Positions 1-34,268 are shown, counted from the first letter of the stretch. The stretch is 64,000 nt of DNA from Candidatus Omnitrophota bacterium (GCA_022711115.1 JAKLFP010000002.1:15674-79673); one strand, 5' to 3'. Made by a program: numbers and translations. The notes: generated by a model from the sequence alone, not told the origin.

Positions 1-112
1 AAAAGTCCAGACACTTGCGCCGCAGTATTTCGGGATCGATGCCACACTGAGTGGAATAAGTAGTAAGACGGGGCCCATTACGGCGAGCGACCTTCTCCAG
101 GCCCGCCAGTTT

Positions 113-6100: not shown

Positions 6101-9100
6101 CAGGTGTTCAGCCGTATTATGGATTCGTTTCTGGCACTGGGATTTTCAGAGCTACACCTGAATTTCAGCCAGATTCAAACCGTCCTTGCAAGTCCCAGCG
6201 ATCTGGAGGCCTTGAAGGCTCTCAGAAGCATCACCGGGACCGGGAATCCGGCCGTGGATACTTTCCTCGACGAACTCATCACCATCGTTGACCAGCCCAC
6301 CCTTGGGCAATTGCGGGAACTTCAAAGACATTTTGTCGGCGTCCCTCCTCCTGCGCTGACTGATCTGCTTCTCCTGCTTCATTTGACGAGCGCTGCCGAG
6401 CTCGCGCCCGGCGTCGTGCAGCTTCCCCTGACCGTGCCTTTACCCGGCACGAACATAAGCACCATCATGGTTTCCGAGGCCATGCTGGCCCGCATCGCGG
6501 CCAATTTCGAAATCAATCTCACGGACTTGACCGTGGACCAATTGGCGGAAGCGCTCTTCAACGTCAATAATATTCCTCCCACAGCCATGGCCGATCTTGA
6601 GAAGAACATCGCGAACTTCGTGCGGGCCATGGCGGTCCAGACCGGAAAGCCGCAGCCCGTTTTCCCGGACCAAGCCACGCTTGTCCGCGTCTATTTGGCC
6701 AGGGAGCTCCTGCTCGCCATCCGGACAGAGACCGGGGCGCCGATTTCCACCAGTCTTCTCAAGCAGGTATTCGTGCAATTTGGATTGATGAATTTGGACC
6801 TCCAGCTTTTTATCCAGCGCGAGCTGGGCCTGACTCCGGTCGCGGATGTCTCGGGCTTTTTAAGCACCATGACCCGCAACAATTCCATGACCCAGGGTCT
6901 CAACCGGCTTCTTGCCGCGGAGGATACCTTGGTGAATCGACTGGCGTTTGTTGACGCGCTAGGAATTCCGAGGAATTCAGCGCTGGTCGGCGACATCCCA
7001 ACCTTACCGCAGGAGATCAAGGCTTTAGCGCTTCAATGCCTTACGGCCTTAAGCAATATGCCGGAGGGCGCTATCGGGGTCCTTAATTTTGAACGGCTCG
7101 TGTCCAATCTGCTCTGGCGTAACTCACAGCCTGCGGCCGTTCAGAACTATCTTGGAAGCCTTACGGTCTATGAGCTTTCCCAGCTGACACAAACGCAGAG
7201 AGATAATCTTGTAATGCAATTAACTTTTCTGATGGGTCAAGAGCCTAGTGTCCAAGCGCCTATCCTTTCGCGATTGAGTGCCCTTGAAATCGCGGGCATG
7301 ACCAGTCAGGAGATGACGGACTTTGCTGTCCGGATCCAAAGCCTTGACGGTTATCAAACGACGATGCGCCTGATTGTCGCAAATAGGCTGGCCGGCAAAG
7401 ATAATCTGCTGGAGGGGATTTCAATCGATCCAGCTGAGCAGAACTTGTGGAACACGTTCCACCCTGTATTGAAAGCGATGTCCATCAAATCGATCCGCGA
7501 TATCGCGGAGGTTTTTTCTACGGTGACCGCCCGGTCTGTAGCCCGGAACGGATTTAACGCTGAAGCATTCTTCAAGATGCTCATGGTGAAAGCAATGCTG
7601 CTTCAGATTTCTCCCAGCCACGGACTGGGCACCCTCACCGAATTCGAGGTTTTGGAAAATGTTACCGTGCTTTTGAGCGATTCAACAAACTCTCTGGGTC
7701 AGGTCTTCAGGAATTTGGATGTTGTGATCAGTATGGTGGGTCAGCTGACCACCGACGACCTCGCAAGGATGACTCAGGAGCAAATGCGGAATCTGATTGT
7801 TAATCTTTTTGCCAAGGACGGACTGGACAATTTGGCGGCTCACGACAGCCTATGGCCTGTTCTGATCCAGATCCTGAAAGGGAACTATGCCAGTCAAATC
7901 GACACCCAGCTGAATGCGCTTAAGACCTTCTATGACGCGTTTAAAAACAACCAAGAGGTCATGGTCCGGATGTCCCAGCTGGGCCAAGATGCTGCGGCCG
8001 CATTTTTGAACAACATTTTGCTGATCCAAACCGACACTAATCTGGTGCCCCAACTCCTTGATGTGATCCTGCTTACCAATCTGGGAGACAGCGTCAGTCA
8101 AATTACGCAGGCTGGAAACGGATTTCAGGTCACGATGGCAAGCGGGCAGATCCGGTTTGTGAAAGCCGATGGCGCGCTCAATATCCCGAACCAGATCGAT
8201 CTGGGCAACGGATATTCGCTGGCGCAAACTACTTCCAGTCCGGAAGGCCCAAGCACCTACACCATCTCCTCATCAAATGGTATTCCGATTGGAACTCTTA
8301 CGGTTTCAAGCGGGGAGCATCCGGCCATCACACTTAATATTACACTGGGTGGAAACAACGTTCCCGTGACGATTGACGGGGATCTGTCAAGGCTTCAGAC
8401 CACCACCCAAAACGGGAATCTTGTTGTGATCATTCAGTCCGGGTCGGAGATGCGGCGGATCACGCTGGGGCAGAATGGCCAGCAAGTGGTTGAAAATTTT
8501 GATCTCTCTGAAACCGTCACGGAAGCGCCGATGACCCTGCCGAATGAGCTGACTTTTTCTATCGATGCAGATAATATTTTTAGACTGCAGAGCGGTAGTT
8601 TGAGCTTCACCGTGGACGGTCATGAATATGAGATGGAGTTTGAAGGCGGCGTGCTTGCAGAGACCATCCAATTCAATGGGGAAGGGGAACTGGTTTTCAT
8701 GGATGCGCAGGGAGACCGGCATCAGGTGAATGCCCTGGCTGGAGGAAATTTTGTCGAGACCGTGCACCAGGTTTCAGGCGGGATCCGGACGGTGGTGCGC
8801 AATCATACCGGCGCTCCTGTGCAAACCATTGACGGTGTCACGAACGTGACACACACGGCAACCGGTGTGACGGTGGTCGGTCAAAATGCGGTGACGCTCA
8901 CAATCAGCGCCGATTCCAATTCCATGACAATCCATGTCTCCGGGCCGGTCGGGGTACCCGGGCCGGCCGTTCCGCTGGTTGCTTCGAATCTCATGCTTTC
9001 AAACGAAGGAATCGTGATGGGGCTTTCCGAAGACCGCTCCACGCTGTGGATTTCGGCGGGCGGACAAAGCTTTTCCGTGAATACCTCCACGCAGATCATA

Positions 9101-12100
9101 ACGGAATCCACCAATGCCTCGGCCATCGGCTCCACCCTGTATTATGCCCCGGCCGGAGGTTTCATCATTGTCAATGAAACAGGCATCGTGATGGAGATCA
9201 TCGGGGATGTTGGGAACATCCGGCAGGGAGATTTGGCGGTCCCCGTTGCGGCCGATAGTCTGCAGAACGTTCGTCCAAGTGTCATTTTTTATGATGAGAA
9301 TGTGGATCAAGTGACCGGAGTGATCGGAGACACGGGCCCGAATTTCTCGCTGCCTCAGGGGAGTCAAGTCCAAACCATTAACGGCACGAGGATTGTGACG
9401 GCCCATCCTATTCAGGCCGTCGATCTCAGTTTTCACGCAGAGGATTTGATGGGGGCCTTCAATGAACATTCGTTGATGCGTGATGAATTCCCCAATGAAT
9501 GGTTCCAGGGAGCCCTGAATAATATCCGGACAAGGCTCATGAACGGGGAAGAGGTCAGCAAAGAGGAATGGGCCGAGGTCTTGAACCAAATTCTTCAAAT
9601 CAGGCAGCGCGCAGAGGATTATCAAAGGATTCTGGATAGTGTTGAGGCAGATTCCGCAATTCGGGACCGCCTCGGTAGCGCGCTTCTCGAACTTCTGGCC
9701 AAGGCAGCGGATATCAACTCAAGCATGACCTTAGAGGAAATCCAGCGTCTGAACAGGAGATTGCTGGAGGCTTTCTTCCCGCTCCAAATCCAGGCAACCT
9801 TTTCAAATCCAACTTATAGTTATCAACCTGCGGGCTCCAATGCATCGGTCCAGGTCGATGCGAATGGCCAAATTGTCGTGACGGCCGTGACTCCGGCCTG
9901 GAAAGAGATTTTTTTAAGACTGCCGGGCGGGTCGCACTACACGGTGCTGCAGAATGGCTCTGTGGTTTATTCCGTGCAGCGGCCCGACCGCGGATTTAAT
10001 ACGGTCGTGGTTTCACTGGACGGTGTGATGACGGTGAACGGTGTGTCTTTTCTCCTTGATGAAAGTACCCAGATTGCAATGGGCCTGTCAGGCGAGGTGA
10101 TCCTCAATCGCGGTCCTCCGATCCGAATCCTGGATGACGGCAAAGTGACCGTCGGCGGTGGCCTTGTTCAACAAGGCACGGTCGTGCATCTCAAAGACGG
10201 GCAGGCGATCATTTATTATACCGATACCCGCATTATTTCCAATCAGGATGCATCCACCCAAGCCACGCATCCCTGGATTCTGCAAATCAAAGAGACCCGG
10301 ATACCTCTTGCCGCCGATCTTGTTTCCGCTGAAGTCCGGCCGGACGGCAGCGTCATTATTATTGTTGAGGAGGCTAACGGCCTGGTCCATTCTCATCTCA
10401 TTCAGCCGGATGGCAAGACCGCGACGGACTTTGATATCAACGGCATAGGCCCGATCAATCAATCGATCCCCGTCAGCCAATTGCCTCAAACAGGGCCTGC
10501 CACGTCTCCTGCGGTGGCCAATCCGCCGGCTCCGAATGTGACCGTGCCGCCGGTGCAGTTTCCGAATCCTGTTTCAGAGATCGATTTAACGGATCTCTCC
10601 CCTCAGTCTCCCGCGCAGACGCTCCAGATTCCGAACGTGGGAGTGATTACGGTACAAGTCGTCCCGGCCGGGGACGGATCGATCCGGTTTGAAATTGACG
10701 CGACCAGCTTGCTTCAGCCGATCACGCTGCTGCTTCCCGGGATGACGCCCGAAGGCCAGACGCCGCATGTCACGTTCGTGACCGTGACCCCGATCGGCAG
10801 TTTAATACAAGTGACGACGTCTACCCCGGGCAATCCCCAATTCGTCATAACCGAAGTCCCGATCGTGCATATTGAAAATTTAGCTCACCCGGTCAGCGTG
10901 ACGACTCCAAACGGGGTTGTCACCGTGCTTCCCGTGAATCCGGCGCAGGGGACCCCTCCGACGATTGATACTTCGGGCTTGACAGGACCGGTCCAATTGG
11001 AACTGCCCGGCGTTGGCTCGTTGACAGTGACTCCGCCCGCGGATCCGTCAGGCAATTTCACGCTGGGCGACCTGAACTTGACCGCACCAGTCCGAATCCG
11101 TCTTCCAAACGGGACAAATTTTGACATCCCGGCTCAAAGTAATGGGGAAATGCAATTTCCAGGGTCTATCATTATCGGTAATACCACAGGGAAGATCCGA
11201 ATCGATTCGATTGTGGTGAATGCAAACGGCGTGCTTCAGAATCTGTTCATCGTTTTTGGCAATAGCAGGATTACCCTCTGGCCGGGAGATTATGTCGGGG
11301 TGAATATCTGGTCCTCGCCATCCGGGGAAATAAACGGACTTGTAATCAATAATGTTTTCGACACTCAGACCTATTTTTACCGTCCCTTCGGACCCGAGGG
11401 GCAGTTGACGCTCCGCGGCCCTCTGCCACAAACGTTTCTGTTATTACAGGACTCTTTTATACAACATCTCAATGCTCAAAATTTAAATCAAGCGAACCAA
11501 GTTATCGAGGCAATGATCGGGGCTTTGAGCCAGGATGTTCAAAGGCCGGGCGCCCTTGAGGCCATGCGGCATGTGGTTTTTGATGCCCTCGTTCTGCTTC
11601 AGAATCAGCTGATTGCGCAAAGCTTGGTTCCGCAGGCGATTACAAACCTGACGCGCATCATGGTCTTGTTGGGGTCATTGACCCAGGGCCAGCCGTCTTC
11701 GGTTCAGGCGGATATGAAGGTCCGTCTTGCGGGCGCCCTCATTCAGCTGCAGACCCAGCTGGCCGAGCTGAATTTCACACAGCTCCAGAGCCTGAACAAT
11801 GTCTTGACAGAGCTGAACCAAGCCATCAGCGATTTTCTGCGTAATCATCCGGCGCCTGATATTGAGGAAGCCCTGAAAAAAATGCAGCAAGGCATTGCTA
11901 AAGGCATTCTGCGGCATGCACAGGAAGCTTCAAATCTGGACGCGGCAGTCCAAGCGATCGGACTGAACGCCGGAGTCCGCATTCTCAAGCAAGCGCCTAC
12001 GATTGAAGAGATCCAGGGTTTGGTTAAGGTAGCTCAGGCGAACGGACAAGAATATCTGCTCTTTTTCTCAAGCGAGCTGGGGCGGTATGTCCTCTATACG

Positions 12101-15100
12101 AGCGGTTCGCAGTCAGGGGGGGTGACGACCGGATCTCCGGAATTCCGGGATTATCTCCGGAATGATCCGAATGTGTTTGTGGTTGCTCACACGCATCATG
12201 AGGTGCAGGATCCGAGTGATCTGGATCTGAAGGAGTTTGGACAAAGCCGGAGAGACTTTGAATTTATTTTCACGCCGGCCGGAGTCACGATTCTTTACAA
12301 AGAGACCGGCAAGGACGGCGAGATCAAGGTGAATTTCATCCACGTTTCTTATGGGAGTATCCCGTCCGAATTTTTTGGGATCCTGGGCGCGCTGGCCCAG
12401 TCTCAGGATGTAGATCTCGTGGTCTTTATGAAGCTCCTCGGCATGCTGGATCAAAGCCTCGGCGAGAAGACCGTGATCCGGAGACAGTACAATCTCCCGT
12501 TCGGCACCCTGACGGATCTTTTAAAACAGAACGAACTGCCGCGCGTCGCAGATATTGTCAAAACCTGGATGGATACAGGCGGCACGACGCGCGCTGATCA
12601 GTCTCTTGCTCTCAAGGTCCTGACGCTCCGGGCCTTGGTAAATTTCTACGTAGATTACCCAAATAAGACAGTACAGCTGCTCAATCTTCTTCGGGAAATT
12701 TCAAACGATCTTTCTCAGCCTGAGAATTTTTCCATGGTGGATACGGCCCTTCTGCGAAACGTATTGCTCCAGGCCATGAGTTTGTGGAGTCAGGAATTAA
12801 TGCGGGCCCGGACGCAATATCTTTTAGATAACGGACCAAGTGCTGCAAGCCATCCGGCCAAGGAAAGAATCAGGTTACTTGGAAAAATCTTGTTGCAGCT
12901 CAAAAACCTGGATCAGCAGGCGCAGTTGAATAAGAGGACATGGCTTACAAGACTTTTTGCCAGGCCCCAGACCGGACAAGTTGATGCGGAGGAAATTGAA
13001 CTGCTTGGCCTTGGCGCTATCCGCGGCGTCGAAGAAGCAGATGTTGAAGTGGTCCTGTTTGAGGAGAACCAGTCAGATCTGGAATACACACTACGTAGCA
13101 ATGCCTTAAATTTGTTAAAGGCGCAAATGAATTTGGTAGGGCTCAGGGCCCCTATCCATTTCCTGATCGTGCCCAATGCTCAGGCTGTTGAGGCGGATGG
13201 GAGCGTGCTCTATTTTACCGTAGATGATATTACGGGTGTGATCGGTCTGCAGACGAAAATCAGGGATTTTGTTCAGCGCACCGGGATCGGGATTACGGCT
13301 GCTGAAGTGGCTGAAGAAGCTGAGGCGTCTGCAGCGTCTGCAGCGGCTGAACAGGCTGCGGCAGACAAAGCGGCTAAAGAGACTAAACGTGCGGCGCCTC
13401 CTTCGGGATCGGTTCCGACCGATGCGCCTTTGACGACTGCCACGCCCGAGACCGCAGCAGGCTCCACTCCGTCTGTCCCATCAACTCCGGCAGCCACACC
13501 AGCTTCTCTCGCTACACCTGTAACACCGTCCGCTGCTTTGCCCACAGTGGCTGAAATTGGTCAGCAACTGAACCGTCTCCGGAGTCAAAGATCGATGCGT
13601 AGAGAGGAGAATGAAGCATCGAATCGACAGGGGACAAGCGCTTTCACGAATGCCGATGCCGAGACGCTGCGTCAATGGGTTCTTCGCATCGCATCCATTG
13701 ATCAGCAATGTGAAGCCTTGGTGCAGGGGTTGAGTGATGAAGAACTCAAGGTTTTACTTTCCACTGACAATGAAACTCGTCTTCTACGCGGCGAGGCGTT
13801 GGAATTGCGTGACGATCACTCTGCACCGGATTTTGCAGCGCGGGAGCTTGTCAAACGGGGTGTTGTAAACGCTGTCGGCGCTCCCGTAACGCCGGCATCT
13901 CCCACTCTGACCCCCGAGTCAGCGGGTCCAGCTCAGGGCAACGTGGTACCGCCGGCAAAGCCTGTTTCACCCGCTCGTGATGAGGTTGAGGCGCCAAGGT
14001 CAGAACCTCTTGAGGTGGAAGAAATTATGATTCCCGAAGAACCCGCAGAGTCTTTTGGCGGAAATAGAATGCTTCAACTGATTTCGAGAATCATGAAATT
14101 TGAAGCTAAATTGAAAGAGTTGAGAACACAGTGGGAGGCAGCGTTAAAGCAAAATGAAAAGGCCAAACAAGAACAAATCTCTCTACAAGAAATGACTTTA
14201 TTGAGACAACTCAGCGATGAAGTAGAGCCTCTTATTAAATTATTGAGTGAGGATGCTTGGTTTCAGACCGCTATCCAGAAGGAGTTTTTTAGCGGAAGAT
14301 CCGAATATACTTCGCTTGTTCGATTGATGGAACGCGGGCAAGAGAGAGAATTTGTCCAGACCCTCATGGAGGCAACAGCCCGCGGTATGGTCGAATATGA
14401 GGGTGGCAACTTTCCGGCGGAGGAGCAAATCAATAGGATTAGTCAACTATTGCCAAAAGGTGCAGAAGGATTTGCGAGTGACTTTTATCGTGTTGCAAGG
14501 GGTTATTTGGATGGTCTGCGTCAACAAATTGCACAACAGACCCAAGCCCCGATTTCTCCAGCAGCGCCCACAGAGTCTGCGCCAAGAGGTGCATCACCTA
14601 GGACTGAAGTGCGGGGCGGGGATATCAATATTTCAAACCTCGGACCGGGCGCCGCGGTCTCTCATACGACGGCCAACCAGCGGTTTGGACGTGCCATTAC
14701 GAATCAGAAAGCGGCGATCGAAGCCTTGGGGATCCCGGCCGACCGGGTCGACGACTTCCTGGATCTGGGCCAGACGCCGGACGGGGTCCGGGTCGTGATC
14801 CTCAATGCGGAAGAAATTACGGATGAAGAGTTTGACCAGCTTGGCCATGCGGGGCTGACCCGCAATGTTGTTTATGTCCTGCGCCGCGGCAGTGAAAACT
14901 ACTGGCCCGTGGCCGGCCACGAACTTGCGGAACTCACGCTCTGGAAGACCCTCGAATACCAGCTTCGCCAGCAGGGCGAAATCGCCCGCTTCGGAGAAAC
15001 GAATTCTTCCAAGCCCCGGGATATCCGGGCCTGGATCCAGCTTCAAATGCAAACCGCAAACGGAAGGGAACGGGTCCGGAAATATGAAGCGTTCTTCGAC

Positions 15101-18100
15101 CGCATGGCTGCGGCGGTTCAGGAGATTCTCACCGATCTGATCAATCAGGATGCTTGGGCGATTCGGACCGTGGATGATCTTTCCGCATTCGTGCGCGAAA
15201 AGATCGAAGAGCTCCAACGTCCGGCGGCCGAGCTCCAAGGTCGAAGTGTTGCCGACATCATACTTCGCCAGACCGAACAGGATTTCAAAATCCGGAAACA
15301 GGAAGAGACCATCCAGAGGTTGGAGGACGGCATCCGTACTTGGGAGGACGCCTTAAAAGGCATGGCGCAGCATGAGCGGCTGCGCGTCATGGTCCGCTCC
15401 GGCGCCGGAGGCGCCATAAAGTCCTACACGCGCCAGGAGATCGAAAGCCGGATCCGGATGCTCCGCAGCCAGCTCAAGCGCGAGCAGGTTGCGCTTGAAG
15501 GGCTCCAAGGGGAACTCAAGCTGGCCCGCACTGAACTGAAGGAGGAGTCGAAAGCCCAGGCCAAGGTTGCTGTTCCGGCCGCCCGGAATGAGTTTGAAGT
15601 CTTCTTTTCCCCCGAACGCCGGAACGAAGGTCTCTCGACCGAAAACGAAGTTGCTTTGGGCGTTCTTGCCAAAGATATTTTATCCGACGCCGAGGGACAG
15701 CTGCTCGAGAGCTGGTTTGAGTATATCCGGAGCAGGAACCGCCAGGGGGATCCGCTTAATGAAGAGGCTCTCAAATATTTTCTTGAACTCCTCAGCATTG
15801 ATTACGAGGGACTGAAAAAACAGCCTGGATGGAATCTTCAGGGCCTGACATGGATCAGTAAATTGCGCGAGGTTGCGCAATTCCTGAAGCAATTCCACGC
15901 GCTCCGGAAAGATTTCACCAATCTTTCGTCGGAACATAGCCCGCTGCTCGACAAAGTCTTTCAGGCGCTCGTTCGCCTTTATCTTGTCTCGGTCCGGCGC
16001 CTGTCCCGTGGAACAGGGCTTGAGTTGATTTTACAGGCGAGACATATTGAGAAAATCGTTTCCGGGCTCATCGAGAAAGAAGTTGCGGATAAAACGGCCC
16101 GGTCCGTCATCCGGGCTTCGCTGATCACCTTGTTGAGTACTGAGACAATCACCAGTACTATTCAGAGGGTGGCCGGACTCTTTGACGGTCTGCAAGGCAA
16201 GCTGATTGACCGGCAAGAGCTCATGGACAAGGTACTTAAGGGGCAGGAGGACAAGTGGAGTAAACTTTTACCTGCTGCCGGCAAGGTCAGCCGGGCGGAG
16301 GCCGCTCAAGCTGCGGGGGAGGCTGCGCAGACCTATCTGGCAAATAATGGCAATCCACCAGGGAAGCCGGAAGACAAGATCGTAGCAAAGGATATTTTGG
16401 TCGACGGGGCCTCTTTGGAAGGACTCGCGGAAGAGGCCATGCGCGAAAAGGGAGAAAAGATGCAGAAATCCCTGACAGCGACGGCCCACCGAATTTTGAG
16501 GGCCATTCTTGAAACGACAAGCATGACTCATGAGCAGATTGAAGAGGTTATGACGGATTTGACAAATTGTTTTGATAAGGAAACAGGCGAACTTATAGAC
16601 CGCGATAAGTACAGGACCACCTTAAATCGGTTAGTAGGAGATCAAGATTCTGAGTTGAATGCCTATATCCGGGACGTTCTGGCCACTCGGATCGATCAGC
16701 TTCGTGTCATGGGCCAATCAGCCCTTGGGCATACCGAAGGTTTTGATACCTTTGTGAGAGAGTCCCTGGCGCTTGTGAATTTGGCTTACATGATGAGTTA
16801 TGGCCGTTCGGATGCTGAGGCCTACCGCGGGGTCCAGAGTCTCACCGCTGCGGCGGCCACAGGCTATGGCATCGCAAACTTTGGGACGGGGGAGGGAAAG
16901 ACCAAGACATCGGCCATGGTCCTGGTGGTTCACTTTTTGCGGAGCCCCAAGGACCGGCCGGTGATGCATATCGTGTCCCAGGATCGATTTGCCCAGGATA
17001 ATCTCGGTGAAATTCATCCGATTTTATCTTATCTGGGTATTGGGCATGACCGCCTGAGCCGCTCCGATGATAACAATAAAAAATCCGGGATGCTTCAACA
17101 TGACGGCATCGTCTACACCAGTGTCAGCACCTTTGTCTTCGAGTTTTTGACGGATAGGGCCAAATCAAAAGGCGAGCATGTCTTTCCTTATGATGAGGCG
17201 GAGGTCAACCCACTTCCTTTTATTATGAACATGGATGAGGTTGACAGTATTGCTATTGACCAGTCCCTGAACGCCTTCATCATCGCAAGCGCGGCGCAGC
17301 AGGCTCCTACCCAGGAGTATGCCTTGAAGTCTATCTGCGACGAAATCGCATCCTTCATGGTGCGCGGGAACCTGATTATGCGTGTCTCTGACAAGCGGCT
17401 CCAGGAAATCCGGCAGAGTGCGAAAGACGGCGAGGACCTCGGCCGTCAGGTTCTGGCGTTCGTTTCGGATTCGGGGCAGACCCACCTGACCCAGCAGGGA
17501 AAGCGCTATGTGCGCGAAGTCGTTGCTCAGGCCGTCACCGAGTACGGCTTCAAGAAACCCTATCAGGGTGATCTCGAAGATCCGGCCAATGACTGGCTTT
17601 GGAAACAGATTGGGAATGCGTTCGGGCCGCACACGGGCCAGTACGCCGCCAATCGGAATGTCAGCATCAGCTCAAACGGCGAAGTCAAAAATATCGACCA
17701 GGCTACAGGCAGCCATCAAAACACAAAAACAGCAGACGGTGTCCATCAAGCCATTGAGGTGGCGTTATCGAAGCTCTTTCCAAATCAGGGGATCACGGTC
17801 TCGAGTGACCACAGCCAGACCACGGACCGGATCACGTTCCGACAATTCATCGAACTTTTGGCCGCGACCACGAAAGTGGAGCACGGGGGTCGGAAGGTCC
17901 GGGTGAGGCAGTTGAGCGGTTATTCCGGGACCGCCCAGGAGGTCAGCAAGAACCTCAAAGAGGACCTGGGACTTCCCGGCGAGAACAAGCCGGTCGTTAC
18001 GATTCCTTCGTTTGCTCCCAAGGTGCGGGACAGCCACGCGACGTGGTACATTAACAGGTGGAGCGACGCCATGAAAAATCACAAGCTCGAATTCATCAAT

Positions 18101-21100
18101 ATAAGAATTCGCCGAGGCGGCGCGCCCAAGATCATGAAGTTTGAACATGGCAATACGGCTGCTGCAGTCCGTCAGTGGATGAAGCGCGATCATGCCAGGG
18201 CCCTTGAGCGGGTGAGACTCGATTCGGGATACAAACAATTATCTGACGCTCAAATTCTCAGTAAAATCGAGGAAGAATGGGCCACGGATAAGCTGAGCCC
18301 TCAAGCATTCGACGTGATTCGATCGAAGATGGAGCGTGGATTGCAGCTCAGCACGGATGAGGAATTGCTGCTTGCGAAGTTTTGGCTCCTCACCCTGGAT
18401 GAATTCCAAATTTACATGTATGACGGAACCGAGTCGTTCGCACAGGAGAAGAAAATCCTCGACCGTGACGGCGGGGAAGCCAATGCCCTGACGATCGGGA
18501 CCAATATCCTCGGCCGCGGAAAGGATTTCAAGCTGCTTGACCAGAATCAATTAATGGAGCTCTTAGAATTACTCTTGACACCAGAAGAATTTGAAAAATT
18601 GGCTCATTCCGTTGGTGAGGCATTTAAAAAGCTCAAAGACAAAGATTTGAGAACAAGTGTCGGGGAAGGCGAGGGCGATCCTCGAAATGATAATACTGAA
18701 AAGTTTAAGAAGATAGAGAAACTTCTGACCGAACATATTACAGACGCCTTTCAGGAAATAATTAAAACCAAGGAAGGAAATGGCCGTGTCAATTTGGTGC
18801 GGATACGTGATGCATTCTTGGCCCGGGCGTACGGATACCAGATGTTCCGGGAAGTGGCTAAATCCGCTCGTTCCGACACCCAGTCGCGGGGCCGAGCAGG
18901 CCGCCAGTTTGATATCGGCGCGGACTTTGAGTTCATGGTTTTTGAAGATGCGGATCAATTAAACGAGGAGTCGGAGGAGATCAGTTCGTCGCGGAAAAGC
19001 TTTGACGAGGGATTTCCGCATCTGGATTACAACTCCAGCCGCTGGATCAATCGCTTTTTGAATCAGCCGCCTGCCAAGGGCGGAGCGCAAACCCTTACCC
19101 GGCTGCTTTTTGTGGCTGCGCCTCTTGCGATTTTTGGGATCGTCGTGGGGCTAGCGGCTCCGCCGGTTGCGGCCACTCTGGCTGCACTGATCGCATTTGC
19201 GCCCGGTCTTTTCGCGATCATGACTTTGAGAAGGGACTCACTCGTTCATCCCGAGCACGGCGTTGTGAAAAAAATCACTTTGTCATCATTCATCAAAGAC
19301 CGCATCAGCCGTAAGGCCTTCTTCTTTACGAACGCTCATCAGCTGACGGTGGCGGGCCTTTCGGTGATGGGTGCCATTGCAGCGGGAGTGCTGGTCTTTG
19401 CCCTTGGCGCGGGTCTTGTTTCCGTGATCGCTGGCGGTGCGGTCCTGGCCCTGGTTTATTCCTCCTTTGTCCTGCGAAGCTGGGCTGCAAATCTGAATTT
19501 GGGTTTCATAAGCCGCATGATACAAACGCCGGGAGAAAAGATGGACCGTCGATTCTACGGTATCCTGACTCAAACACAATATAATAAGATAGGAAAACTG
19601 GATACCAAGGCTGTCGCCGAGATGGACCGTTTCAAAGCCATCAGCCAGGAAGGACATGAATGGTTCTACAGCCAGCAGCGCAGTTACCAGAATCGTTTTG
19701 ATGCGTTCCTCGAGAGTTTCTTAAGCCCCTTCATTGCAGGGGCCAACCGGCTGGATTGGACGAAGAAAGATGACCAAGAAGGGAAAGCGGAGAATGCTCC
19801 GGGTGCTCTGGGTAAAGTCTTGAATGGGATTTTTGGAAAAAGACTTCAAACTGCACCGGTTTACGAAGCATCGATGATTGTTGCTGCGGCTTTTGCCCTT
19901 CCTTTGCTTGTGCCTTTCGGCGGGTTGATCGCGCTGGCCCTGGTTGGGGGATACTTTGTGGGCAAAAATTATAAGCGTCTGGTTCAGCGTTCCATCGTGC
20001 CTATTCAATACATTCACGCCTATTTGGACAGGATTTTCTATGATTATGAAGCGGCCATGGTCCAATACGAAAAGCGTTATTTCGAGCTCTTGAAAAAGAA
20101 GACTCCCACGGAAATCCAGAAGGCCGTGCATCAGAAAATGAAAAAAGAAGGCCTGGACCAAAAGCAAGCCTATGACAGTGTCATCAATGAATTGAACGCC
20201 GAAACGAACGATCTTCTGAATCATCCTCCGGCTTTTGAGCTGAGGGACAAAGTCGCCTGCTATGACCCTGCGGCCAAGCGCTTCGGGGGACTCCGGCCCA
20301 AGAAGAGCACGCTCATCGATTTTGATCTCACGCTGCCGAAGCCGGTTCCCCAGGTAAGCGCGCAGTCCGGCGAATACGCAAAATTGGTTCGGCAGGCCAA
20401 AGCCGATTTTAAAGCACTGCGCGATCAGGTCGAGAACCTGCGCCGGGACCTGGAATCTCAAGATTTGACGAAGTTAATCACGCCTGAAATACTGCGGCAT
20501 CTTCATGGCATGGTCCGCAGCGAATTTATCGAGCGGGCGCAAAAAGCTCAAAATGAGTTTTATGATCAGCGGATCAATATTTTGGGCTTGGTCGTGGGGA
20601 TTCCTCTCATGCTGGCCGCTGGGTCTCTGGGATGGCTGGTCGGACGGAGCACCTGGCTTTCGAAATACGTGCAGAAGTGGCTCAAGGCCGAGCCGGGATT
20701 TTTCAGCTGGGCCCGTGCAGTCATGATGCATAAGTGGCTCAAGGGCTGGATTGGATCCTATGTGGGACTGCTCGTATTAAATTATCTGGATATGAACCTG
20801 AATTTGGCGGACTGGATGGCGCGCAAAATGGCGGAAGACGCGGTTTTCATCGGCCGCAACGCGCGCTTTGACGCCATTCATGGCAAACGCGATGACCTGG
20901 CCATGAATGCCATACTGAGCGGATTTGTAGGAAATGTCCTTGCGCCCGTGGCGGAAAAGGAAAGCGAAAAAAGGACGCCGCGCAGCACCACAGAGGCCCC
21001 CTCGAAATTGAAATGGTATCAAGACCCTTATTCCCGCGTGCAGGTTTATACGGAGGATGATTCCCGGTTGAGGAACGGAGAGGCGGCCGAACTTGTGGCG

Positions 21101-24100
21101 ACCCAGGACGATCATCACGTGCAGATCCAGAGGGTGGAGGAGGTATCCGAGCCGGAGCGGCCGGACGTGGACATTCAGCTTTCCAGGGAACGGGTGCTGG
21201 GCAGGGACGCGGGCGCCATGGATACGGGTTTTGCCCCGGTTCCGAAGCTCGAGAAGACAAGGACAAATTATGATGCGGAGGCCACCCGGGAGGTCAGGAT
21301 TTTTACAGGAAGTGAGCAACGTCTTGATGGCGGTAAGGTAAGGCTTCCTTTTGGGTTCGACTGTAGCGAAACGGATTGCAAAAAGAACGCGTCCATCGAG
21401 CTTCCGGCGCAACTTGCCGAGCAAGTGAAAAAAGACCCCAGGATTTTGGAGGATCTTGTCCGGGGCCGTGTGGGGATCGTCAAAATCGGAAACGAGTATT
21501 TCCTCGGCGGATCTGACAAGGAAGGTTATCATCTGGTGAATTTGGGGAGCGAAATCAATATGCGGACCCTGCGGGTCATTCAAGGCCTCAGGCACGATGC
21601 CCGGCTGGTTCGCATGGATGCCGGCGGCCGCATCTTTGTAGGCCGTGAGGAGGATATTCATTTTGACGGAGGGGAAAGCCAAATCGAGAATTTGGGTAAA
21701 GGTTCTGTGTTTATTGCCGGTTCGGACGGGATTTGGATCGTCGAAAATGTGAAAATAGGCGAGCAGGTCGTGATTGAAAGCAGCCGTTTGCAATCAACCG
21801 AGAATTGCCAAATTGAGAGAGGGGCCCAAGTGCGTCATTCTTCGCTAAGGGCCTCAAAAATCAATATTGGAAAACGGACCGTGGTGGACCAGGTTATGGA
21901 TTCGCGGAAAACAGAGTTCACGCTTCCTGCCAATGCCCAGGTCGTCGGCGTGACAGGGACGAGCGGCTCGATGGATACCGGGGAGGTTAAGGAAAGCGAG
22001 AAGTTTTTTGGAGTTGTGAATGAAACAGGGGAGTTGCTGCCAGTCGAGTCAGGCGAACCGGAAACCTATTATGTATTCAACCGCGGACTCATGGGCCGAA
22101 TGGACCGGCTGCTCCGGAGCCTTCATCTCATCATTGATCCTGCGCGCAAAGCGCTGGATATTGCAGAGCTGCATCACGATGCTGTGATGACGCTGGAGCA
22201 GGAATCCGGCATGTCACCCGACGACCTTGCGGCGCTCGGTCCGCATGCTGCGGAACTGATCGGTGCGCGGTCTGAAAAAGCGGGTTGGCCTGAAGTTCTG
22301 ACGCGGACCGCCTATCGCACCGTCCAAGCTAGTGTTGTTGTGGCAAGCCTCCTGTCGCTTATCGGACTGATTGTGGCGGCCTGTTTCAGTGTCGTTGGCT
22401 GGCCTGTGGTGATCGCTGCGGTTATTGCGGCGGCTGGGGTGAATGGCCTTGTCTGGCTGGAACATCGCGTCCAGGCGGTCAATAACCTGATTCGGAATCA
22501 TTTTGAAGGTTCCGCGCTCCGGGAACTTTCGACGATCATGTTGCATCGCCAGGTTCCCAAACAGGCTAGGATCGCTATGATACTTCTTTATCATCAACTT
22601 CGCGTTCGCAGTGAACAACCCTTAACCCCAAATCAAGCGGCGCAACAAATTCTCCGGTCCGGGATGTCGGTCCTGGGAGTCGGATTTGCCGCGCAGCAGC
22701 AGAATGAAAACCGGTATTCGGTCAAATTCCGTAAATATCAGGAAACGGTTAGGGCAGTGCGAGACTCCATGGATCAGAAGGTGAGCGCGGAGCTCTCCGC
22801 CAAAATTCTGCGGCGTGTGGCGATACCGGTTTTCGCAAAGGACAAGATGAAATTAGCCCGGATCTTAGGCGGCGCGGTCCATCGGTTGGATAAGACGGCG
22901 GAAGGTTATCCTTCGTATCAGCCGCTTTTGATTTCTGCTATGTATGAAACCGTGGTTTATAAGAGCTGGAAGGACAAGATCCGCGGGTGGTTCAAGAACC
23001 AGACTGTTATGAGGGTTGTCCAGGGGGCGCTGACCGTGATGGTCGGGGCTGCAGTCCTATGGACCCTGCCGATGCTCCTGCCTGAAATCGGCGCGATCGT
23101 GATCCTGAAATTGGGATTCGCGACGCTCCATGCCAGTGTCTTTATTACGTTGCTGAAGGGGTGGCTCATCATGGCAACCCTGCAATCCGTTTTGCGCAGA
23201 GCCGATTCGATCCTTGCGAGCGACGAAGCCCAGAAGAAAGCTCTTGAGGAGGCCCGGATCCAGGGATATGGAAGGATGAGCATGCTATGGAAACGACTTA
23301 AAACGAACCGGATGATGTCCAGGCTGTTCTCCTACAAGCTCTTCAGTTATGACGCAATCAAAATGACCGGATGGTACAAACTACCGGGATGGATTTCCGA
23401 CCGGTTGGCCGCGTGGGCCGGAGGGGATGCTGAAACGCTTTTACGGCGGGCGCTTGGCGGGCTTGGACACGGCATGGGGCAGAATTACTGGCGGGAGGGA
23501 TTGATGGTTGCTCATGCCCGGTTGCTGGAAATAGAAGCCTCGAACGTGTCCGAAGAAGTTAAGGCAAAGGCGCGAAGCGATTTTCAAAAGCTTGCCCGGT
23601 TCGTGACGGAAAGGCGGCACAACCTAAATTGGGATGATGCCAAACACAGCGATGACACTTACCGAGAATTTGATAATTTATTCAAAACTTTCGATCCGCT
23701 GCTTCTGGATGCATGGCACAGCGCGCGCAAGCACGAGCGTGAGTGGTCGATTGAGGAGTTCTTTGTCGCCAATAGCAACGATGAAGAGGTCGTGCATGCT
23801 TTGGCTCGCCTCGCGTCCTGTACGGCCCGCAAGGTCGACATGACAAGAAATCTTAAGCAGCGCGAAGCCATTGAAGCCATCAAAAAAGATCTTTGGGATC
23901 CCTTCCTGGCCCTGAAACAAAAACTGGACAGCGGCCGGGCGAGTGAGATCACCGAGGATGAAAGGGCCCTTGCGCAGGAAACGCTCGGTAAACTTCTTGC
24001 GGAATTCAACCTGGGCGCAGAGCCTGGGAAGGAGCTGACCGTAGGAGACCTGTTTGAGGGTGAATATGATCCTTCAGTAGCGCGTCAGGACCGTCTGATG

Positions 24101-27100
24101 GTCCCGGTCTTCCATCACGGCAAATACTATACCCTGGGATTGGTCCTCAATATAGGCACTTTGGCTGAGGTGTCCGATATTCCCTTTGTGAGAAATCAAT
24201 TGCTGCGCGCTCAGGCAAACCGTACCCTGCTTGAATCGAATCCGCAGGGCTTTGAAGAACTCTACCTGCGGGCGCGTCAGGACTATCTTAAAAAAATGGG
24301 CAAGCCGGCGGATGCCATGGGCATTACCTTTATCGTGGAGACAAAAACAGCCAAGCGTCTCGCCCTGAAGCATTATGCCAAGGGGCAGCTTCACGACGAT
24401 GCATTCTCGGGAACCCGGACCTTTAACGCGGGCACTATTTATGAAAAAGGCTACTTTGCCTCGATCGATATTTCGGTGCTGAGAAAGGAATATGCCAAGG
24501 GATCGAATAGTCACGAGGTGCAGCACTTTATTCATCCCAATGCATCTGGCCGAGATATGGAAACCAATATCATTGAAGAATTCATCAACTATATGTTTCA
24601 GGAGGACGCCGACACCTTTGATGTGGATTCCGGGTCTTTATACGATCTGGAAAAGATCGTCGAAGAAAAAATTGAGCAGTACCTCCGGTACAATGAAGGC
24701 GACAAGCTGATGGATCATTTTACGCAGGATGAATATGTCAAGGCCAAGGTCCGCGCCCAGAACGCTTTGAAATCCGTGCTTGCGTTCCGGATGGTGCTTC
24801 GCGAAATCCTCGCCCAAAGGCAAGTGCTGGACCCGGAGGCCATGGCGAAAAGGCTCGTCAATCTGTTCCTCTGGAATGCCCGGTCCTTTGATGATCTGCT
24901 GGCGATTCAATCCGTGATCCAGGACCGGGGCCGCGCCGTGGAATTTGTCAACCTCCTTGCGGAGATGGGTGTGCTGGGGGAGGGCCGCGAGGATTTTCTT
25001 TATAACGCAGACGAGATCGCAACGGACAAGGCTACCGTGAATGCCGCACTTGAGCGACGTCTCCAGGCCCAGCTTATCGAAGATTATCAACGTCAAGGCG
25101 TCGCGGCGGCTCATAGCCGCTTGCGGCAGCATCTTAGGTCCGTCCAAAAGGCATTCGAGCGTGAAAAGGAACTGATGAATTTAGGTATCGATCATTATAA
25201 GCATCAAATCATGATGTATGAGCGCCAGGGCAAGGACACGACGGAATTAGAAAGCAAACTGAAACAGGCCGAGCAGGAGCTCAAGAACTTCGAAGAGGCA
25301 CATAAGAAGTTGATGAGTTCGCTTCAGAAGAGTCTGATGGATGGCATGTTCGGTACAGCGGCATTCAGAAAAGACGTGCTGGATATGGGGCAAAACTTCA
25401 GGCAGAAGAAGGAGGAGTTCCTGAAGAGCTTTGGCGAGAAGGTGGCGCTGCACCGGAAGGATCCCTCGAAGGACGATCTGTTTAAATTTTTGGGCAAGGA
25501 GCTGCCGCTTTTGGCTGAGACGGCGCGCAAAGGCCTGGTGGGTTTTCAAGATCAGCCGGAAGCGGAGATCGATAAGGTCCTTGCGGAGATTCAAAGGGAT
25601 TGGATAGAGGCGCTTCACCTTTCTCTCATGCATGATCTCGTGAAGGCGGATTCCCTGAAGGCCTATGGACGGATGGAGCGGGAATTTTACCGGATGTATG
25701 AGATCATTACGAGCGAATCCGAGAAGAAGATGCGCTGGCTGGATCCGATTTCGGTCCAGGACCACCGGCGGGCCAAGCTCTACGAAATTAACCCTTCAAG
25801 TATTGCCCGCTACGGTTTTGCTTTCAAATTCATGAATGACTCGCTGGAGCGTATCCTGCTCGGGCAGGACCAGGATGTGGATACGGATCGGCGGATTCAG
25901 ATGGCGGACCGTTTCAGGCTGCAGGTGGAAGCTGAGGCCAAAAAGAAAGAGCCCAAACAGCATCCCCAGATCCATCTTTGGGAGGAATTCGGGGCGCGCT
26001 ATCTGCAGGCCCTTTTCTGGAACCATACGAAACGGCCCGGGGTTGAAAAATTTATCAACACCACTCTGAAGGATGCAAAACACCGGGCCCTTGGCGATCA
26101 CACCACAAAACGCGTGGTAGACCGCAAGAACGGAGTTTATTTATCCGAGCTCACTACGGAGCGTGTAGAACTGGCTGATTTGATGATGCAGGCCCAATTG
26201 GATTATGAGTTGATGGTCCAGTGGACCTCCGCGAATAAGAAACTGATTACGACCGGCATGCGTTCCGTGGGAACGGAAAGCTTCGGGAAGGACGGTTTCT
26301 TCCGTCTGCTTCATAATCACCCGACCCACCGAAAAGGCGGGGTTGTCGATATCCAGACCGTGCCGAGTTTGACGGATCCGAACTGTGACGGCGTGCTGCA
26401 GCTTGTGACGGGCGGCAAGGCCTATATTGTCAGCGAATACGGAGTGACCCGTTTCTATTTGGATACAACGGTGGATACGCAGGGACTCGGGGAAGTGGTC
26501 TTTGATGACGGCATGCCGTATAGTTTTGAGGAGGCCTCTAAAAAAGCGGATGAGCGCGCCAAGAGTCAGAAGGGGTACAGTTTCGGATATCAGCATCAGG
26601 AGCCCGGGAAACCCGAGGTCAAGGTGAGGGTTGACTTCGTGCCCTGGCAGGCCATTGTACGTGCTGCTCAGCGTCCGGGCGGCATGGCCGCCGTCCATAG
26701 CTTTATGCCGTTTGTCATCTGCACCGATCCGGCAGCGCTGCGCCACTTGAGCAAAAAACTGGAAGCCTTTAAAGTGCCTGCTGCGCGCTCGGAAATTCGT
26801 TTAACTGAAGCGCCCGCACGTGCTGAACTTAAACAGGAGATGATTGAACAGAGACTTGATATTCGTATGCTGCTGACGAAGGTTTTGGGAGGACAGGTTG
26901 ATTGGATTTCCTTGCTCCCCGAACAGGGTTTCATGCCGGCTCCGTCCTTGCCGATTCAACCGCGTGAATTTGCCGGAGCCAATGCTCTCTTGCTGCCCGG
27001 GTCGCAGCAGGGGATACCTGGATTGTCGATTCCGCAGGTTCAGGGTTTGCAATTGCCTGGGATTACAGATCGGGATGTCGAGATTCGAGATAGAGACTTA

Positions 27101-28234: not shown

Positions 28235-28708
28235 TCGTCCAGCCTAGAAGTGTCTTTATATTTTATAAAGCCTTCATGTTCAGCAAACAAGCCACAGGCT
28301 AGTGACGCAAACGACCTTCATAAAAGCAAAAGAGGATTGAACCCCTAAATTTTCCACGGCATAGCTTAAAAAGCGTCATAGCTCTACTATTGACTCCAAC
28401 CACATGCCACAAATCTTTCACGTGCTCTGCGAACTCATGATCGGAAAGGAATGGATCAAGAAGATAGTCAAATGAGGTTTTTCTAAAGGTGATCTAATCT
28501 TAAAAGAAGCATAGCGCGCAAGAGTGCTCGATAATCAAAAGAGGTTGGCGGGAGAGCTAAATTTAATGCCGGAAATACTCCGACAATTCCTCAAAAGAAC
28601 GGCTTTGACTTACTCGGAAAGGCTCTCTTCAGAGATGCTAGACGTCCTATAATGTATCTTATGTAAAGCAGCGTATAGGGAGAGAAAATTCAACAAGAGC
28701 TCATGGAA

Positions 28709-34262: not shown

Positions 34263-34268
34263 GGAACT

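What the first reader, a model, noticed from the sequence alone, without database searches (positions are those of the whole stretch)
16700..18560. Complete SecA-like ATPase motor embedded in the middle of the giant protein
Residues ~5530-6140 carry, in canonical order, the SecA motifs. These are Walker A 'GTGEGKT' (SecA 'RTGEGKT'), the DEAD-like 'MDEVDSIAIDQSLNAFIIAS' (SecA 'VDEVDSILIDEARTPLIIS'), a PPXD-like segment ending 'DGVHQAIEVA' (SecA 'DGLHQAVEAKEG'), 'ITFRQF...SGYSGTAQ' (SecA 'ITFQNYF...AGMTGTAD') and 'TIGTNILGRGKDFKL' (SecA 'VTIATNMAGRGTDIVL'). A preprotein-translocase motor fused inside a >9,000-aa polytopic membrane protein suggests a self-contained translocation or processing machine. 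It could be a toxin or effector that carries its own ATPase. This would be a new use of the SecA fold.
Basis: partly seen in the sequence, partly recalled or inferred. Interest (0 to 1): 0.9.

Follow-up and report, generated by a model that had tools for sequence, protein, structure and literature searches.

The report
SecA-like motor inside Omnitrophota giant protein
A giant membrane protein (at least 14,600 residues) of an uncultured Omnitrophota bacterium carries a divergent copy of the ATP-driven core of the protein-export motor SecA, joined directly to membrane helices; this is real, but it has been described for Omnitrophota giant proteins since 2023 and its function is still untested.

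Summary

The module is NBD1, PPXD and NBD2, about aa 5540-6283 (nt 16730-18961). The module is not a complete SecA. The scaffold, wing, IRA1 and C-terminal domains are absent, and 61 residues after motif VI a transmembrane hairpin begins. NCBIfam SecA and SecA2 equivalog scores are far below their cut-offs.

Flanking housekeeping proteins match a Candidatus Omnitrophota MAG exactly. Other assemblies call the gene at 14,610 and 14,639 aa, still truncated. Two metagenome relatives share a colinear core of about 3,500 aa with every ATPase motif kept.

West-Roberts et al. (2023) and Nielsen & Lui (2026) already describe such SecA_DEAD plus PPXD modules, without scaffold and wing, next to transmembrane helices in Omnitrophota giant proteins. 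This is a new member of a known, purely computational class. The most likely role is a membrane-tethered motor that helps export the giant protein itself. That role is inferred, not shown.

The parts
2..28234 (+). Giant ORF, open at the window's 5' edge. 9,373 codons from the first TTG at nt 113. The full gene is at least 14,639 codons.
   Evidence: no stop codon from position 2 to 28231; the same gene is called at 14,610 and 14,639 aa on ERZ761563 NODE_553 and ERZ27257456 k141_10900 and still runs off the contig; the fetched stretches of these contigs are 100% identical to the window.
16730..18961 (+). SecA-like motor module (aa ~5540-6283): NBD1, PPXD and NBD2. It is equivalent to the SecA N68 / DEAD-motor-plus-PPXD fragment.
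16883..16903 (+). Walker A / motif I, GTGEGKT (K5596).
   Evidence: Conserved in L007, L008, P0009 and P0012 and in canonical SecA; P0007 has GTGQGKT, keeping the GKT.
17234..17245 (+). Walker B / motif II, DEVD (D5708, E5709). It is followed by the family signature IDQSLNAFIIAS in place of the canonical IDEARTPLIIS.
17291..17827 (+). PPXD-like insertion in NBD1 (aa ~5727-5905), ending in TADGVHQAIEVA.
   Evidence: sub-threshold in this protein (19.4 bits against 23.5); above threshold in the colinear relatives L007 (38.3 bits) and L008 (26.5 bits); the family profile hits the PPXD-only chimera 5k94 at 2.3e-9. The boundaries are inferred from the alignments.
17924..17935 (+). Motif III, SGTA (canonical SecA has TGTA).
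17948..18961 (+). NBD2 (aa ~5946-6283), with two helical insertions relative to canonical SecA at about aa 6035-6100 and 6144-6240.
   Evidence: P-loop_SecA 26 bits against a cut-off of 27; 33.5 bits in L007; secondary structure and pLDDT 88-95 across the insertions..
18500..18526 (+). Motif V, TNILGRGKD (R6135).
18884..18907 (+). Motif VI, SRGRAGRQ (R6261, R6264).
19091..19477 (+). Two predicted transmembrane hairpins straight after the motor (aa 6327-6374 and 6410-6455). The K/R-rich loop between them suggests both hairpins start and end on the cytoplasmic side.
   Evidence: Kyte-Doolittle hydropathy only; the start of the GRxxRQ match in motif VI is 66-70 aa upstream of the first TM hairpin in the window protein, L007 and L008, and 104 aa in P0003.
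19868..23158 (+). Further transmembrane segments (aa 6586-6618, 6821-6845, 7403-7451, 7638-7682), separated by large soluble inserts.
2201..3202 (+). N-terminal transmembrane cluster A (aa 697-1030). The adjacent region aa 977-1249 is conserved with L007.
16403..26851 (+). Conserved C-terminal core (aa 5431-8913). It is colinear with two metagenome relatives at 20-32% identity and contains the motor, the TM clusters, and HExxH and HxH...PSLxD motifs.
   Evidence: BLASTP against the L007 and L008 frames. P0003 is colinear with aa 5707-7367..

Best explanation
The segment is a divergent paralogue of the SecA ATPase core, probably catalytically competent. It comprises NBD1 with an inserted PPXD, followed by NBD2. 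It is built into a membrane protein of at least 14,600 aa from a Candidatus Omnitrophota bacterium.

It lacks SecA's helical scaffold, wing, IRA1/two-helix-finger and C-terminal domains. In their place, transmembrane hairpins follow covalently 61 residues after motif VI. It is therefore a membrane-tethered motor resembling the SecA N68 fragment.

It belongs to the class of SecA-like modules already described in Omnitrophota giant proteins.

Most likely mechanism (inferred, not shown): the module sits on the cytoplasmic face of the membrane, held there by the downstream hairpins. It uses ATP-driven opening and closing of NBD1, NBD2 and the PPXD clamp to grip and feed unfolded polypeptide across the membrane. 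The substrate would most plausibly be the long, K/R-poor, non-conserved region of the same giant protein that lies between the N-terminal TM cluster and the motor. The conduit is probably the cell's SecYEG.
For: Shown here:
- Sequence homology to SecA and to nothing else: Pfam SecA_DEAD 69.8 bits; PDB phmmer returns only SecA; NCBIfam's best matches are all SecA or SecA2 models.
- A profile of three giant-protein modules hits SecA structures at E=2e-37. Colinear pieces cover NBD1, PPXD plus the start of NBD2, motif V and motif VI. It also hits a PPXD-only chimera at 2.3e-9.
- The catalytic residues of Walker A, Walker B and motifs III, V and VI are kept in relatives that share only 20-38% identity. 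This argues for an active ATPase under purifying selection.
- The first TM hairpin starts 66-70 aa after the GRxxRQ match in motif VI in three relatives. A colinear core of about 3,500 aa is conserved.
- No SecA_SW or SEC-C domain is found in this protein or its relatives.
- The host is Omnitrophota: DnaK, RecA, AlaRS, SMC and MoxR from the window are exact matches to NCBI HOW588xx, 'Candidatus Omnitrophota bacterium'.
- In a neighbour-joining tree, six long-protein modules form a clade apart from 111 normal-length SecAs.

From the literature:
- The same architecture and the same self-export proposal appear in West-Roberts et al. 2023.

Hints for export in cis:
- There is no strong hydrophobic segment between aa ~1040 and 6327.
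- K+R content is only 4-6% in aa 1251-3950, against 12-14% from aa 3951 onward.
- That middle region is not conserved with L007, while the TM cluster before it and the motor after it are.
Against: - No experiment exists for any member of this class, so substrate, direction and conduit are all inferred.
- The two-helix finger and scaffold that canonical SecA uses to dock on SecY and push substrate are absent. Canonical coupling to SecYEG therefore cannot be assumed.
- The AF2 alignment was made mostly of canonical SecAs, so the model leans towards the SecA fold. The sequence evidence is independent of this.
- In this protein itself, the PPXD and NBD2 Pfam scores are just below the gathering thresholds: 19.4 against 23.5, and 26 against 27.
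- Transmembrane segments come from a hydropathy scan only.
- The clade in the NJ tree rests on a short branch (0.024) and could reflect long-branch attraction.
- The low-charge signature of the middle region is weaker in L007, and no equivalent region could be delimited in the 5'-truncated L008 frame.
- One fragmentary relative (P0004) has a degenerate Walker A, GAVEDKI.
- I did not check whether this MAG has its own canonical secA and secYEG.
Confidence: 0.6

Rival explanations
1. The module is a membrane-anchored motor that acts in trans. It would export or unfold other proteins, such as secreted hydrolases or other giant-protein fragments, or pull substrates towards the putative peptidase motifs in the conserved C-terminal core. 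On this reading it is a processing machine rather than a self-export device.
For: - The motor and its PPXD clamp are intact.
- The conserved core downstream carries HExxH motifs (aa 8134 and 9119) and an HxH...PSLxD motif, at comparable positions in L007 and L008.
- West-Roberts et al. also allow for secretion 'of accessory proteins'.
Against: - The peptidase assignments rest on short motifs only. Pfam found nothing, and a three-sequence profile of the HxH...PSLxD region against PDB found nothing.
- No candidate substrate gene lies next to the giant gene. The neighbours are housekeeping genes on the opposite strand.
Confidence: 0.2
2. The module is a degenerate relic of a captured secA gene. 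It would serve only as a structural or membrane-proximal scaffold, with no ATPase-driven function.
For: - Identity to canonical SecA is very low (22-26%).
- The regulatory and SecY-docking C-terminal third has been lost.
- One fragmentary relative, P0004, has lost Walker A.
- West-Roberts report long branches for these domains.
Against: The catalytic residues of Walker A, Walker B and motifs III, V and VI are retained across relatives at 20-38% identity, while the surrounding sequence has diverged. This pattern is expected for an active enzyme, not a relic.
Confidence: 0.1
3. The giant ORF is an assembly or gene-calling artefact, for example a normal secA fused in frame to neighbouring genes. 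Alternatively, the segment is a generic DEAD-box or SF2 nucleic-acid helicase and not SecA-like.
For: - Metagenome assemblies of giant, repetitive genes are error-prone.
- SecA and DEAD-box helicases share the RecA-like core. Pfam DEAD gives a weak hit in L008.
Against: - Identical sequence was recovered from three independent data sets.
- The open frame runs 28 kb without a stop.
- The architecture is colinear in unrelated contigs L007 and L008 and in P0003.
- The score against the SecA equivalog model is 97.7 against a cut-off of 800, so this is not a normal secA.
- A PPXD insertion is present.
Confidence: 0.03

Closest known systems
SecA-like (SecA_DEAD plus preprotein-binding) modules of Omnitrophota giant proteins (West-Roberts et al. 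2023, bioRxiv 10.1101/2023.11.21.568195); PF07517 architecture cluster of Nielsen & Lui 2026 (10.64898/2026.06.07.730766)
   Same: - The host phylum is the same.
- The host ORF is giant and rich in transmembrane helices.
- SecA_DEAD plus PPXD are present without scaffold and wing.
- Transmembrane helices lie adjacent to the module.
- The module falls in a divergent clade separate from normal-length SecA.
- The only Pfam family above its curated cut-off in the whole visible protein is SecA_DEAD, as in the 20-protein PF07517 cluster.
   Different: - West-Roberts analysed genes above 90 kb (over 30,000 aa) of the 'Archaeovorin' or 'Dockerin' types, which carry many enzyme or adhesion domains. This protein is at least 14,600 aa, with its full length unknown, and shows none of those domains in its last 9,373 aa.
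- Three details seen here are not reported in the passages of those papers that I read: the conserved core of about 3,500 aa, the fixed spacing of 66-70 aa from motor to hairpin, and the IDQxLNAFIIAS signature.
Canonical SecA, in particular its N68 / DEAD-motor fragment (PDB 5k9t, 3bxz)
   Same: - Domain order is NBD1, PPXD, NBD2.
- All ATPase motifs are present.
- The best Foldseek hit is the N68 truncation.
   Different: - Identity is 22-26%.
- There is no HSD, HWD, IRA1/two-helix finger or C-terminal linker/zinc finger.
- NBD2 carries two large helical insertions.
- The module is not a free soluble protein of about 900 aa. It is an internal segment followed by transmembrane hairpins.
- From my own knowledge, not tested here: isolated N68 is a deregulated ATPase that cannot translocate on its own.
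Accessory Sec system (SecA2/SecY2) of Gram-positive bacteria, which exports very large serine-rich adhesins
   Same: Conceptually, it is a specialised SecA paralogue dedicated to one very large surface protein. This is what the module may work like.
   Different: - SecA2 is a separate full-length protein with scaffold and wing, and it works with a dedicated SecY2 and accessory proteins.
- NCBIfam SecA2 models score 47-79 bits against cut-offs of 725-1100.
- Here the motor is fused in cis to the presumed cargo, and no dedicated SecY2 was seen in the 36 kb downstream.
DEAD-box / SF2 helicases
   Same: They share the two RecA-like domains and the Walker A, Walker B and arginine-finger motifs.
   Different: - They have no PPXD insertion.
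- Pfam DEAD is not significant for this protein.

Membership tests
Canonical SecA (TIGR00963; Pfam SecA_DEAD + SecA_PP_bind + P-loop_SecA + SecA_SW) | NBD1 of the DEAD type with Walker A GxGEGKT and Walker B DEVD | tested here: met
   Pfam SecA_DEAD scores 69.8 bits against a cut-off of 24.6. Motifs are at aa 5591 and 5708. They align to E. coli SecA.
Canonical SecA (TIGR00963; Pfam SecA_DEAD + SecA_PP_bind + P-loop_SecA + SecA_SW) | Preprotein cross-linking domain (PPXD) inserted into NBD1 | tested here: met
   In this protein alone the score is sub-threshold: 19.4 against 23.5 bits. It is above threshold in the colinear relatives L007 (38.3 bits) and L008 (26.5 bits). The family profile hits the PPXD-only chimera 5k94 at 2.3e-9 and aligns through PPXD of B. 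subtilis SecA.
Canonical SecA (TIGR00963; Pfam SecA_DEAD + SecA_PP_bind + P-loop_SecA + SecA_SW) | NBD2 (IRA2) with motif V GRGTD and motif VI RGRxGRQ arginines | tested here: met
Canonical SecA (TIGR00963; Pfam SecA_DEAD + SecA_PP_bind + P-loop_SecA + SecA_SW) | Helical scaffold, wing and IRA1/two-helix-finger domains (SecA_SW, PF07516) | tested here: not met
   There is no SecA_SW hit at E<=0.1 anywhere in the 9,373 aa, and none in L007 or L008. Profile alignments to SecA structures end at motif VI. Only 61 residues separate motif VI from the first TM helix.
Canonical SecA (TIGR00963; Pfam SecA_DEAD + SecA_PP_bind + P-loop_SecA + SecA_SW) | Full-length equivalog score and a free-standing protein of about 800-1000 aa | tested here: not met
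   TIGR00963 scores 97.7 bits against a cut-off of 800. The module is internal to an ORF of at least 14,600 aa.
Canonical SecA (TIGR00963; Pfam SecA_DEAD + SecA_PP_bind + P-loop_SecA + SecA_SW) | ATP-dependent preprotein translocation through SecYEG | not testable with these tools
   This requires biochemistry or genetics.
Accessory SecA2 | Match to the SecA2 equivalog models | tested here: not met
   TIGR03714 scores 79.2 against 930, TIGR04221 scores 47 against 725, and NF012136 scores 48.6 against 1100.
SecA-like module of Omnitrophota giant proteins (West-Roberts 2023; Nielsen & Lui 2026) | Encoded within a very long ORF (at least 10,000 aa) of an Omnitrophota genome | tested here: met
   The gene is called at 14,610 and 14,639 aa and is still truncated. 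Neighbouring proteins are exact matches to a Candidatus Omnitrophota MAG. It is below the 30,000-aa threshold of West-Roberts as far as can be seen, and above the 10,000-aa threshold of Nielsen & Lui.
SecA-like module of Omnitrophota giant proteins (West-Roberts 2023; Nielsen & Lui 2026) | SecA_DEAD plus preprotein-binding domain, no scaffold or wing, with transmembrane helices adjacent | tested here: met
   The definition is quoted.
SecA-like module of Omnitrophota giant proteins (West-Roberts 2023; Nielsen & Lui 2026) | Falls in a clade separate from normal-length SecA | tested here: inconclusive
   In the NJ tree, six long-protein modules are monophyletic against 111 normal-length SecAs. 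The stem branch is only 0.024 and there is no bootstrap support. None of the sequences from the West-Roberts tree were available for inclusion.
SecA-like module of Omnitrophota giant proteins (West-Roberts 2023; Nielsen & Lui 2026) | A normal secA and secYEG are also present in the same genome | not tested
   The window does not contain them. The rest of the MAG could not be fetched. P0001 comes from an unrelated sample.
DEAD-box RNA helicases (PF00270) | Significant DEAD and Helicase_C matches, with no PPXD insertion | tested here: not met

The most novel reading that the evidence does not exclude
The motor and the conserved transmembrane hairpins that follow it form an autonomous, cis-acting export device. 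It would thread the several thousand K/R-poor residues lying upstream of it in the same polypeptide across the membrane, possibly towards prey cells, without the two-helix finger and perhaps without SecYEG. That would be a self-exporting giant protein and a translocation mode not known for any SecA relative.
Probability: 0.12. Interest if true: 0.85.

Novelty: new member of a known kind. Interest (0 to 1): 0.38.

Why it matters
How bacteria with very small cells make, insert and export polypeptides of 10,000 to more than 100,000 residues is an open question. A built-in, membrane-tethered SecA-type motor is the only export-related element that recurs in these proteins.

This example is useful as a comparatively compact case with few other domains. 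SecA_DEAD is the only Pfam family that scores above its curated cut-off. The motor boundaries are well defined, the catalytic motifs are all conserved, the spacing from motor to hairpin is fixed, and a core of about 3,500 aa is conserved. Together these give concrete constructs and point mutants for a first biochemical test.

It does not change what is already known about the class. The class itself was described computationally in 2023.

Tried and rejected
- Single-sequence AlphaFold of the module gave pLDDT 36 and was unusable. It was replaced by an 80-sequence alignment.
- Word-indexed protein searches with the module, and then with a nine-sequence alignment, returned only 1 and 4 canonical SecAs. 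A search with the conserved C-terminal region returned nothing, not even the query itself. The giant proteins appear to be absent from that collection except as fragments.
- The exhaustive phmmer search found only two close hits, both fragments.
- Both genome-contig scans, one with the module and one with the downstream conserved region, found no relative. A two-sequence alignment then gave L007 and L008.
- PDB sequence searches of aa 3900-5499 and aa 7700-9373 found nothing.
- A profile of the HxH...PSLxD (JAB-like) region against PDB found nothing. The peptidase idea therefore stays at the level of short motifs.
- Rfam and tRNA scans of the window were empty.
- P0001 was checked as a possible canonical SecA of the same organism. 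It comes from an unrelated sample.
- I considered and rejected three ideas. A SecY-like channel formed by the downstream helices is unlikely, because Pfam finds no SecY signal and the helices are split by soluble inserts of 130-560 aa. A toxin domain is unsupported (Ntox43 E=0.09). An assembly chimera is ruled out by identical sequence in three data sets.

Full report
**1. Observation**

The window holds one + strand frame with no stop from position 2 to 28231. Counted from the first TTG at nt 113 it has 9,373 codons.

- GTGEGKT at aa 5591
- MDEVDSIAIDQSLNAFIIAS at aa 5707
- DGVHQAIEVA at aa 5875
- ITFRQF at aa 5907
- SGYSGTAQ at aa 5935
- TIGTNILGRGKDFKL at aa 6127

The resemblance is not chance:
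- Pfam SecA_DEAD E=3.1e-19, 69.8 bits against a gathering score of 24.6. P-loop_SecA scores 26 against 27 bits, and SecA_PP_bind 19.4 against 23.5 bits.
- phmmer against PDB returns only SecA chains, best E=8e-11, aligned colinearly with E. coli SecA.
- BLASTP against a normal 922-aa SecA aligns residues 52-433, then motif V, then motif VI, and nothing after that.

**2. What the module is**

*Structure prediction.* A single-sequence AlphaFold run failed with pLDDT 36. With an 80-sequence alignment the model reached pLDDT 83.7 and pTM 0.83.

*Fold comparison.*
- Foldseek against PDB puts 36 SecA structures first. The best hit, at E=9e-26, is the C-terminally truncated SecA-N68. TM-scores are highest (0.51-0.59) for SecA in SecY-bound complexes.
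- Caveat: most rows of the alignment were canonical SecAs, so the model is biased towards that fold. The sequence evidence does not depend on the model.

*Family profile.* A profile of three giant-protein modules hits SecA structures at E=2e-37. The four colinear pieces cover NBD1, PPXD plus the start of NBD2, motif V and motif VI. The profile also hits a PPXD-only MBP chimera at 2.3e-9.

*Support for the marginal domains.* In the two colinear relatives the marginal domains mostly clear the Pfam thresholds. SecA_PP_bind scores 38.3 and 26.5 bits, and P-loop_SecA scores 33.5 bits in L007 only.

*Extent.* The module is therefore NBD1, PPXD and NBD2, at about aa 5540-6283 (nt 16730-18961).

**3. 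What the module is not**

- No SecA_SW (scaffold/wing/IRA1) or SEC-C match exists anywhere in the protein or its relatives.
- Profile alignments to SecA structures stop at motif VI.
- Only 61 residues separate motif VI from a strongly hydrophobic hairpin at aa 6327-6374. A second hairpin follows at aa 6410-6455.
- NCBIfam recognises SecA homology (TIGR00963, 97.7 bits), but this is far below the equivalog cut-off of 800. The SecA2 models also fall far short.

The module is thus a distant paralogue of the SecA motor core. It is not a SecA or SecA2 orthologue. 'Complete' applies only to the ATPase plus PPXD.

**4. Host organism and gene**

- The 36 kb downstream carries ordinary chromosomal genes on the opposite strand: yqeY, a BatA/vWA/DUF58/MoxR cluster, dnaK, a sigma-54 two-component pair, trp and his operons, alaS, recX, recA, plsY, smc and fabF.
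- DnaK, RecA, AlaRS, SMC and MoxR are exact matches to NCBI proteins HOW58817-HOW58843 of a 'Candidatus Omnitrophota bacterium' MAG.
- The same locus was assembled independently in ERZ761563, ERZ27257456 and SRR4244739, and the fetched stretches are 100% identical to the window.
- On two of these contigs the giant gene is called at 14,610 and 14,639 aa and still runs off the contig. The true protein is therefore larger than the window shows.

**5. Relatives**

- An exhaustive phmmer search of 1.84 billion cluster representatives found only 409 hits at E<=1e-3 and just two below 1e-30. Both are fragments: P0002 at 44% identity and P0003 at 31%.
- A few long proteins (P0007, 4,733 aa; P0009, 5,111 aa; P0012, 3,155 aa) carry a similar internal module.
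- A metagenome scan gave two loci. L007 has an open frame of at least 6,784 aa and L008 one of at least 5,286 aa.
- BLASTP shows that aa 5431-8913 of the window protein is colinear with both frames at 20-32% identity. P0003 is colinear with aa 5707-7367.
- Upstream of the core, only the N-terminal transmembrane region (aa 977-1249) is shared with L007. The roughly 4,200 aa between that region and the motor have no counterpart.
- Across these relatives the catalytic residues of Walker A, Walker B (DE[IV]D[SN]) and motifs III (SG[TS]), V and VI (GRxxRQ) are conserved. The canonical IDEARTPLIIS is replaced by IDQxLNAFIIAS in the closest relatives, with looser IDQAL variants in the more distant ones.
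- The first transmembrane hairpin starts 66-70 aa after the GRxxRQ match in motif VI in three of them, and 104 aa after it in P0003.
- In a neighbour-joining tree the six long-protein modules group apart from 111 normal-length SecAs, though on a short stem.

**6. Mechanism**

*Shown:*
- A SecA-type two-RecA-domain motor with a PPXD clamp.
- Catalytic motifs under apparent purifying selection.
- A covalent link to transmembrane hairpins in place of SecA's scaffold, wing and two-helix finger.
- A conserved architecture in relatives.

*Inferred:*
- Because it needs ATP, the module faces the cytoplasm. The K/R-rich loop between the two hairpins fits hairpins that begin and end on the cytoplasmic side. 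They would then act as a tether rather than a channel.
- No strong hydrophobic segment lies between aa ~1040 and 6327.
- The non-conserved stretch aa 1251-3950 is poor in K+R (4-6%) compared with 12-14% from aa 3951 onward.

This pattern suggests a layout of anchor, then variable exported cargo, then motor, then tether. In that layout the motor would feed its own upstream polypeptide through a conduit, most simply SecYEG.

This is the same idea West-Roberts et al. put forward. It remains untested. The loss of the two-helix finger means canonical coupling to SecY cannot be assumed.

*Rivals:* action in trans, or processing linked to the downstream HExxH and HxH...PSLxD motifs (which rest on motifs only); an inactive relic (argued against by motif conservation); and an artefact or generic helicase (effectively excluded).

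**7. Comparison with what is known**

- West-Roberts et al. 2023 state that most Omnitrophota giant proteins encode divergent SecA DEAD and preprotein-binding domains. [quoted passage not shown]
- Nielsen & Lui 2026 report a 20-protein PF07517 architecture cluster among 916 Omnitrophota proteins of at least 10,000 aa.
- The present protein, in which SecA_DEAD is the only Pfam family above its curated cut-off, fits that cluster.

It is therefore a new member of a known, so far purely computational, class.

Three details seen here do not appear in the passages I read: the conserved core of about 3,500 aa, the fixed motor-to-hairpin spacing, and the IDQ signature. They are refinements and do not define a new kind.

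**8. Verdict**

- Interest is moderate. The biology is striking and unresolved, but the finding repeats published analyses.

Noticed in passing
window 113-28231 versus 29265-63995: The giant gene differs in composition from its neighbours. GC is about 0.53 against about 0.45, and GC3 is 0.61 against 0.49 for 15 flanking housekeeping genes. This could reflect horizontal acquisition or a distinct codon regime for the giant gene.
   Followed up: partly
window 26312-26377 (aa 8734-8755); L007 frame aa 6249; L008 frame aa 5011: An HxH...PSLxD motif (LLHNHPT...PSLTDPNCDGVLQ), reminiscent of JAB/MPN or RadC-type metalloenzymes, is invariant in all three relatives. Pfam and a profile search against PDB give no support. 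A second HxH...SxxD motif lies at aa 4026.
   Followed up: partly
window 24512-24526 (aa 8134) and 27467-27481 (aa 9119): There are two HExxH zincin-like motifs in the conserved C-terminal core. HExxH motifs occur at comparable positions in L007 (aa 5676, 6550) and L008 (aa 4404). No domain-level support was found.
   Followed up: partly
window 113-12000 versus 12000-28231: Charge is strongly asymmetric along the protein. Charged residues (KRDE) make up 0.11-0.17 of aa 1-4000 and 0.22-0.31 of aa 4000-9373. K+R is only 4-6% in aa 1251-3950. The pattern is weaker in L007, and no equivalent region could be delimited in the 5'-truncated L008 frame.
   Followed up: partly
P0004 (299-aa metagenome fragment): This relative has 35% identity in NBD1 but carries GAVEDKI where Walker A GTGEGKT should be. 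Some copies of the module may be catalytically dead.
   Followed up: no
window 29265-35258 (- strand): A BatA/BatB-like aerotolerance-type cluster (vWA-TPR, BatA-vWA, an unassigned ORF, DUF58-vWA, MoxR AAA+) lies next to the giant gene after yqeY. No link to the giant gene is evident.
   Followed up: no
window 28235-28708: A 474-nt AT-rich gap with no listed ORF of 150 aa or more and no Rfam or tRNA hit lies between the giant gene's stop and the convergent yqeY gene.
   Followed up: no
protein collections used by the tools: The giant protein and its long relatives could not be retrieved from the word-indexed protein collection, not even as self-hits. In the representative library only fragments appear as close hits. 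Homology-based surveys with these resources will systematically undercount this class.
   Followed up: partly
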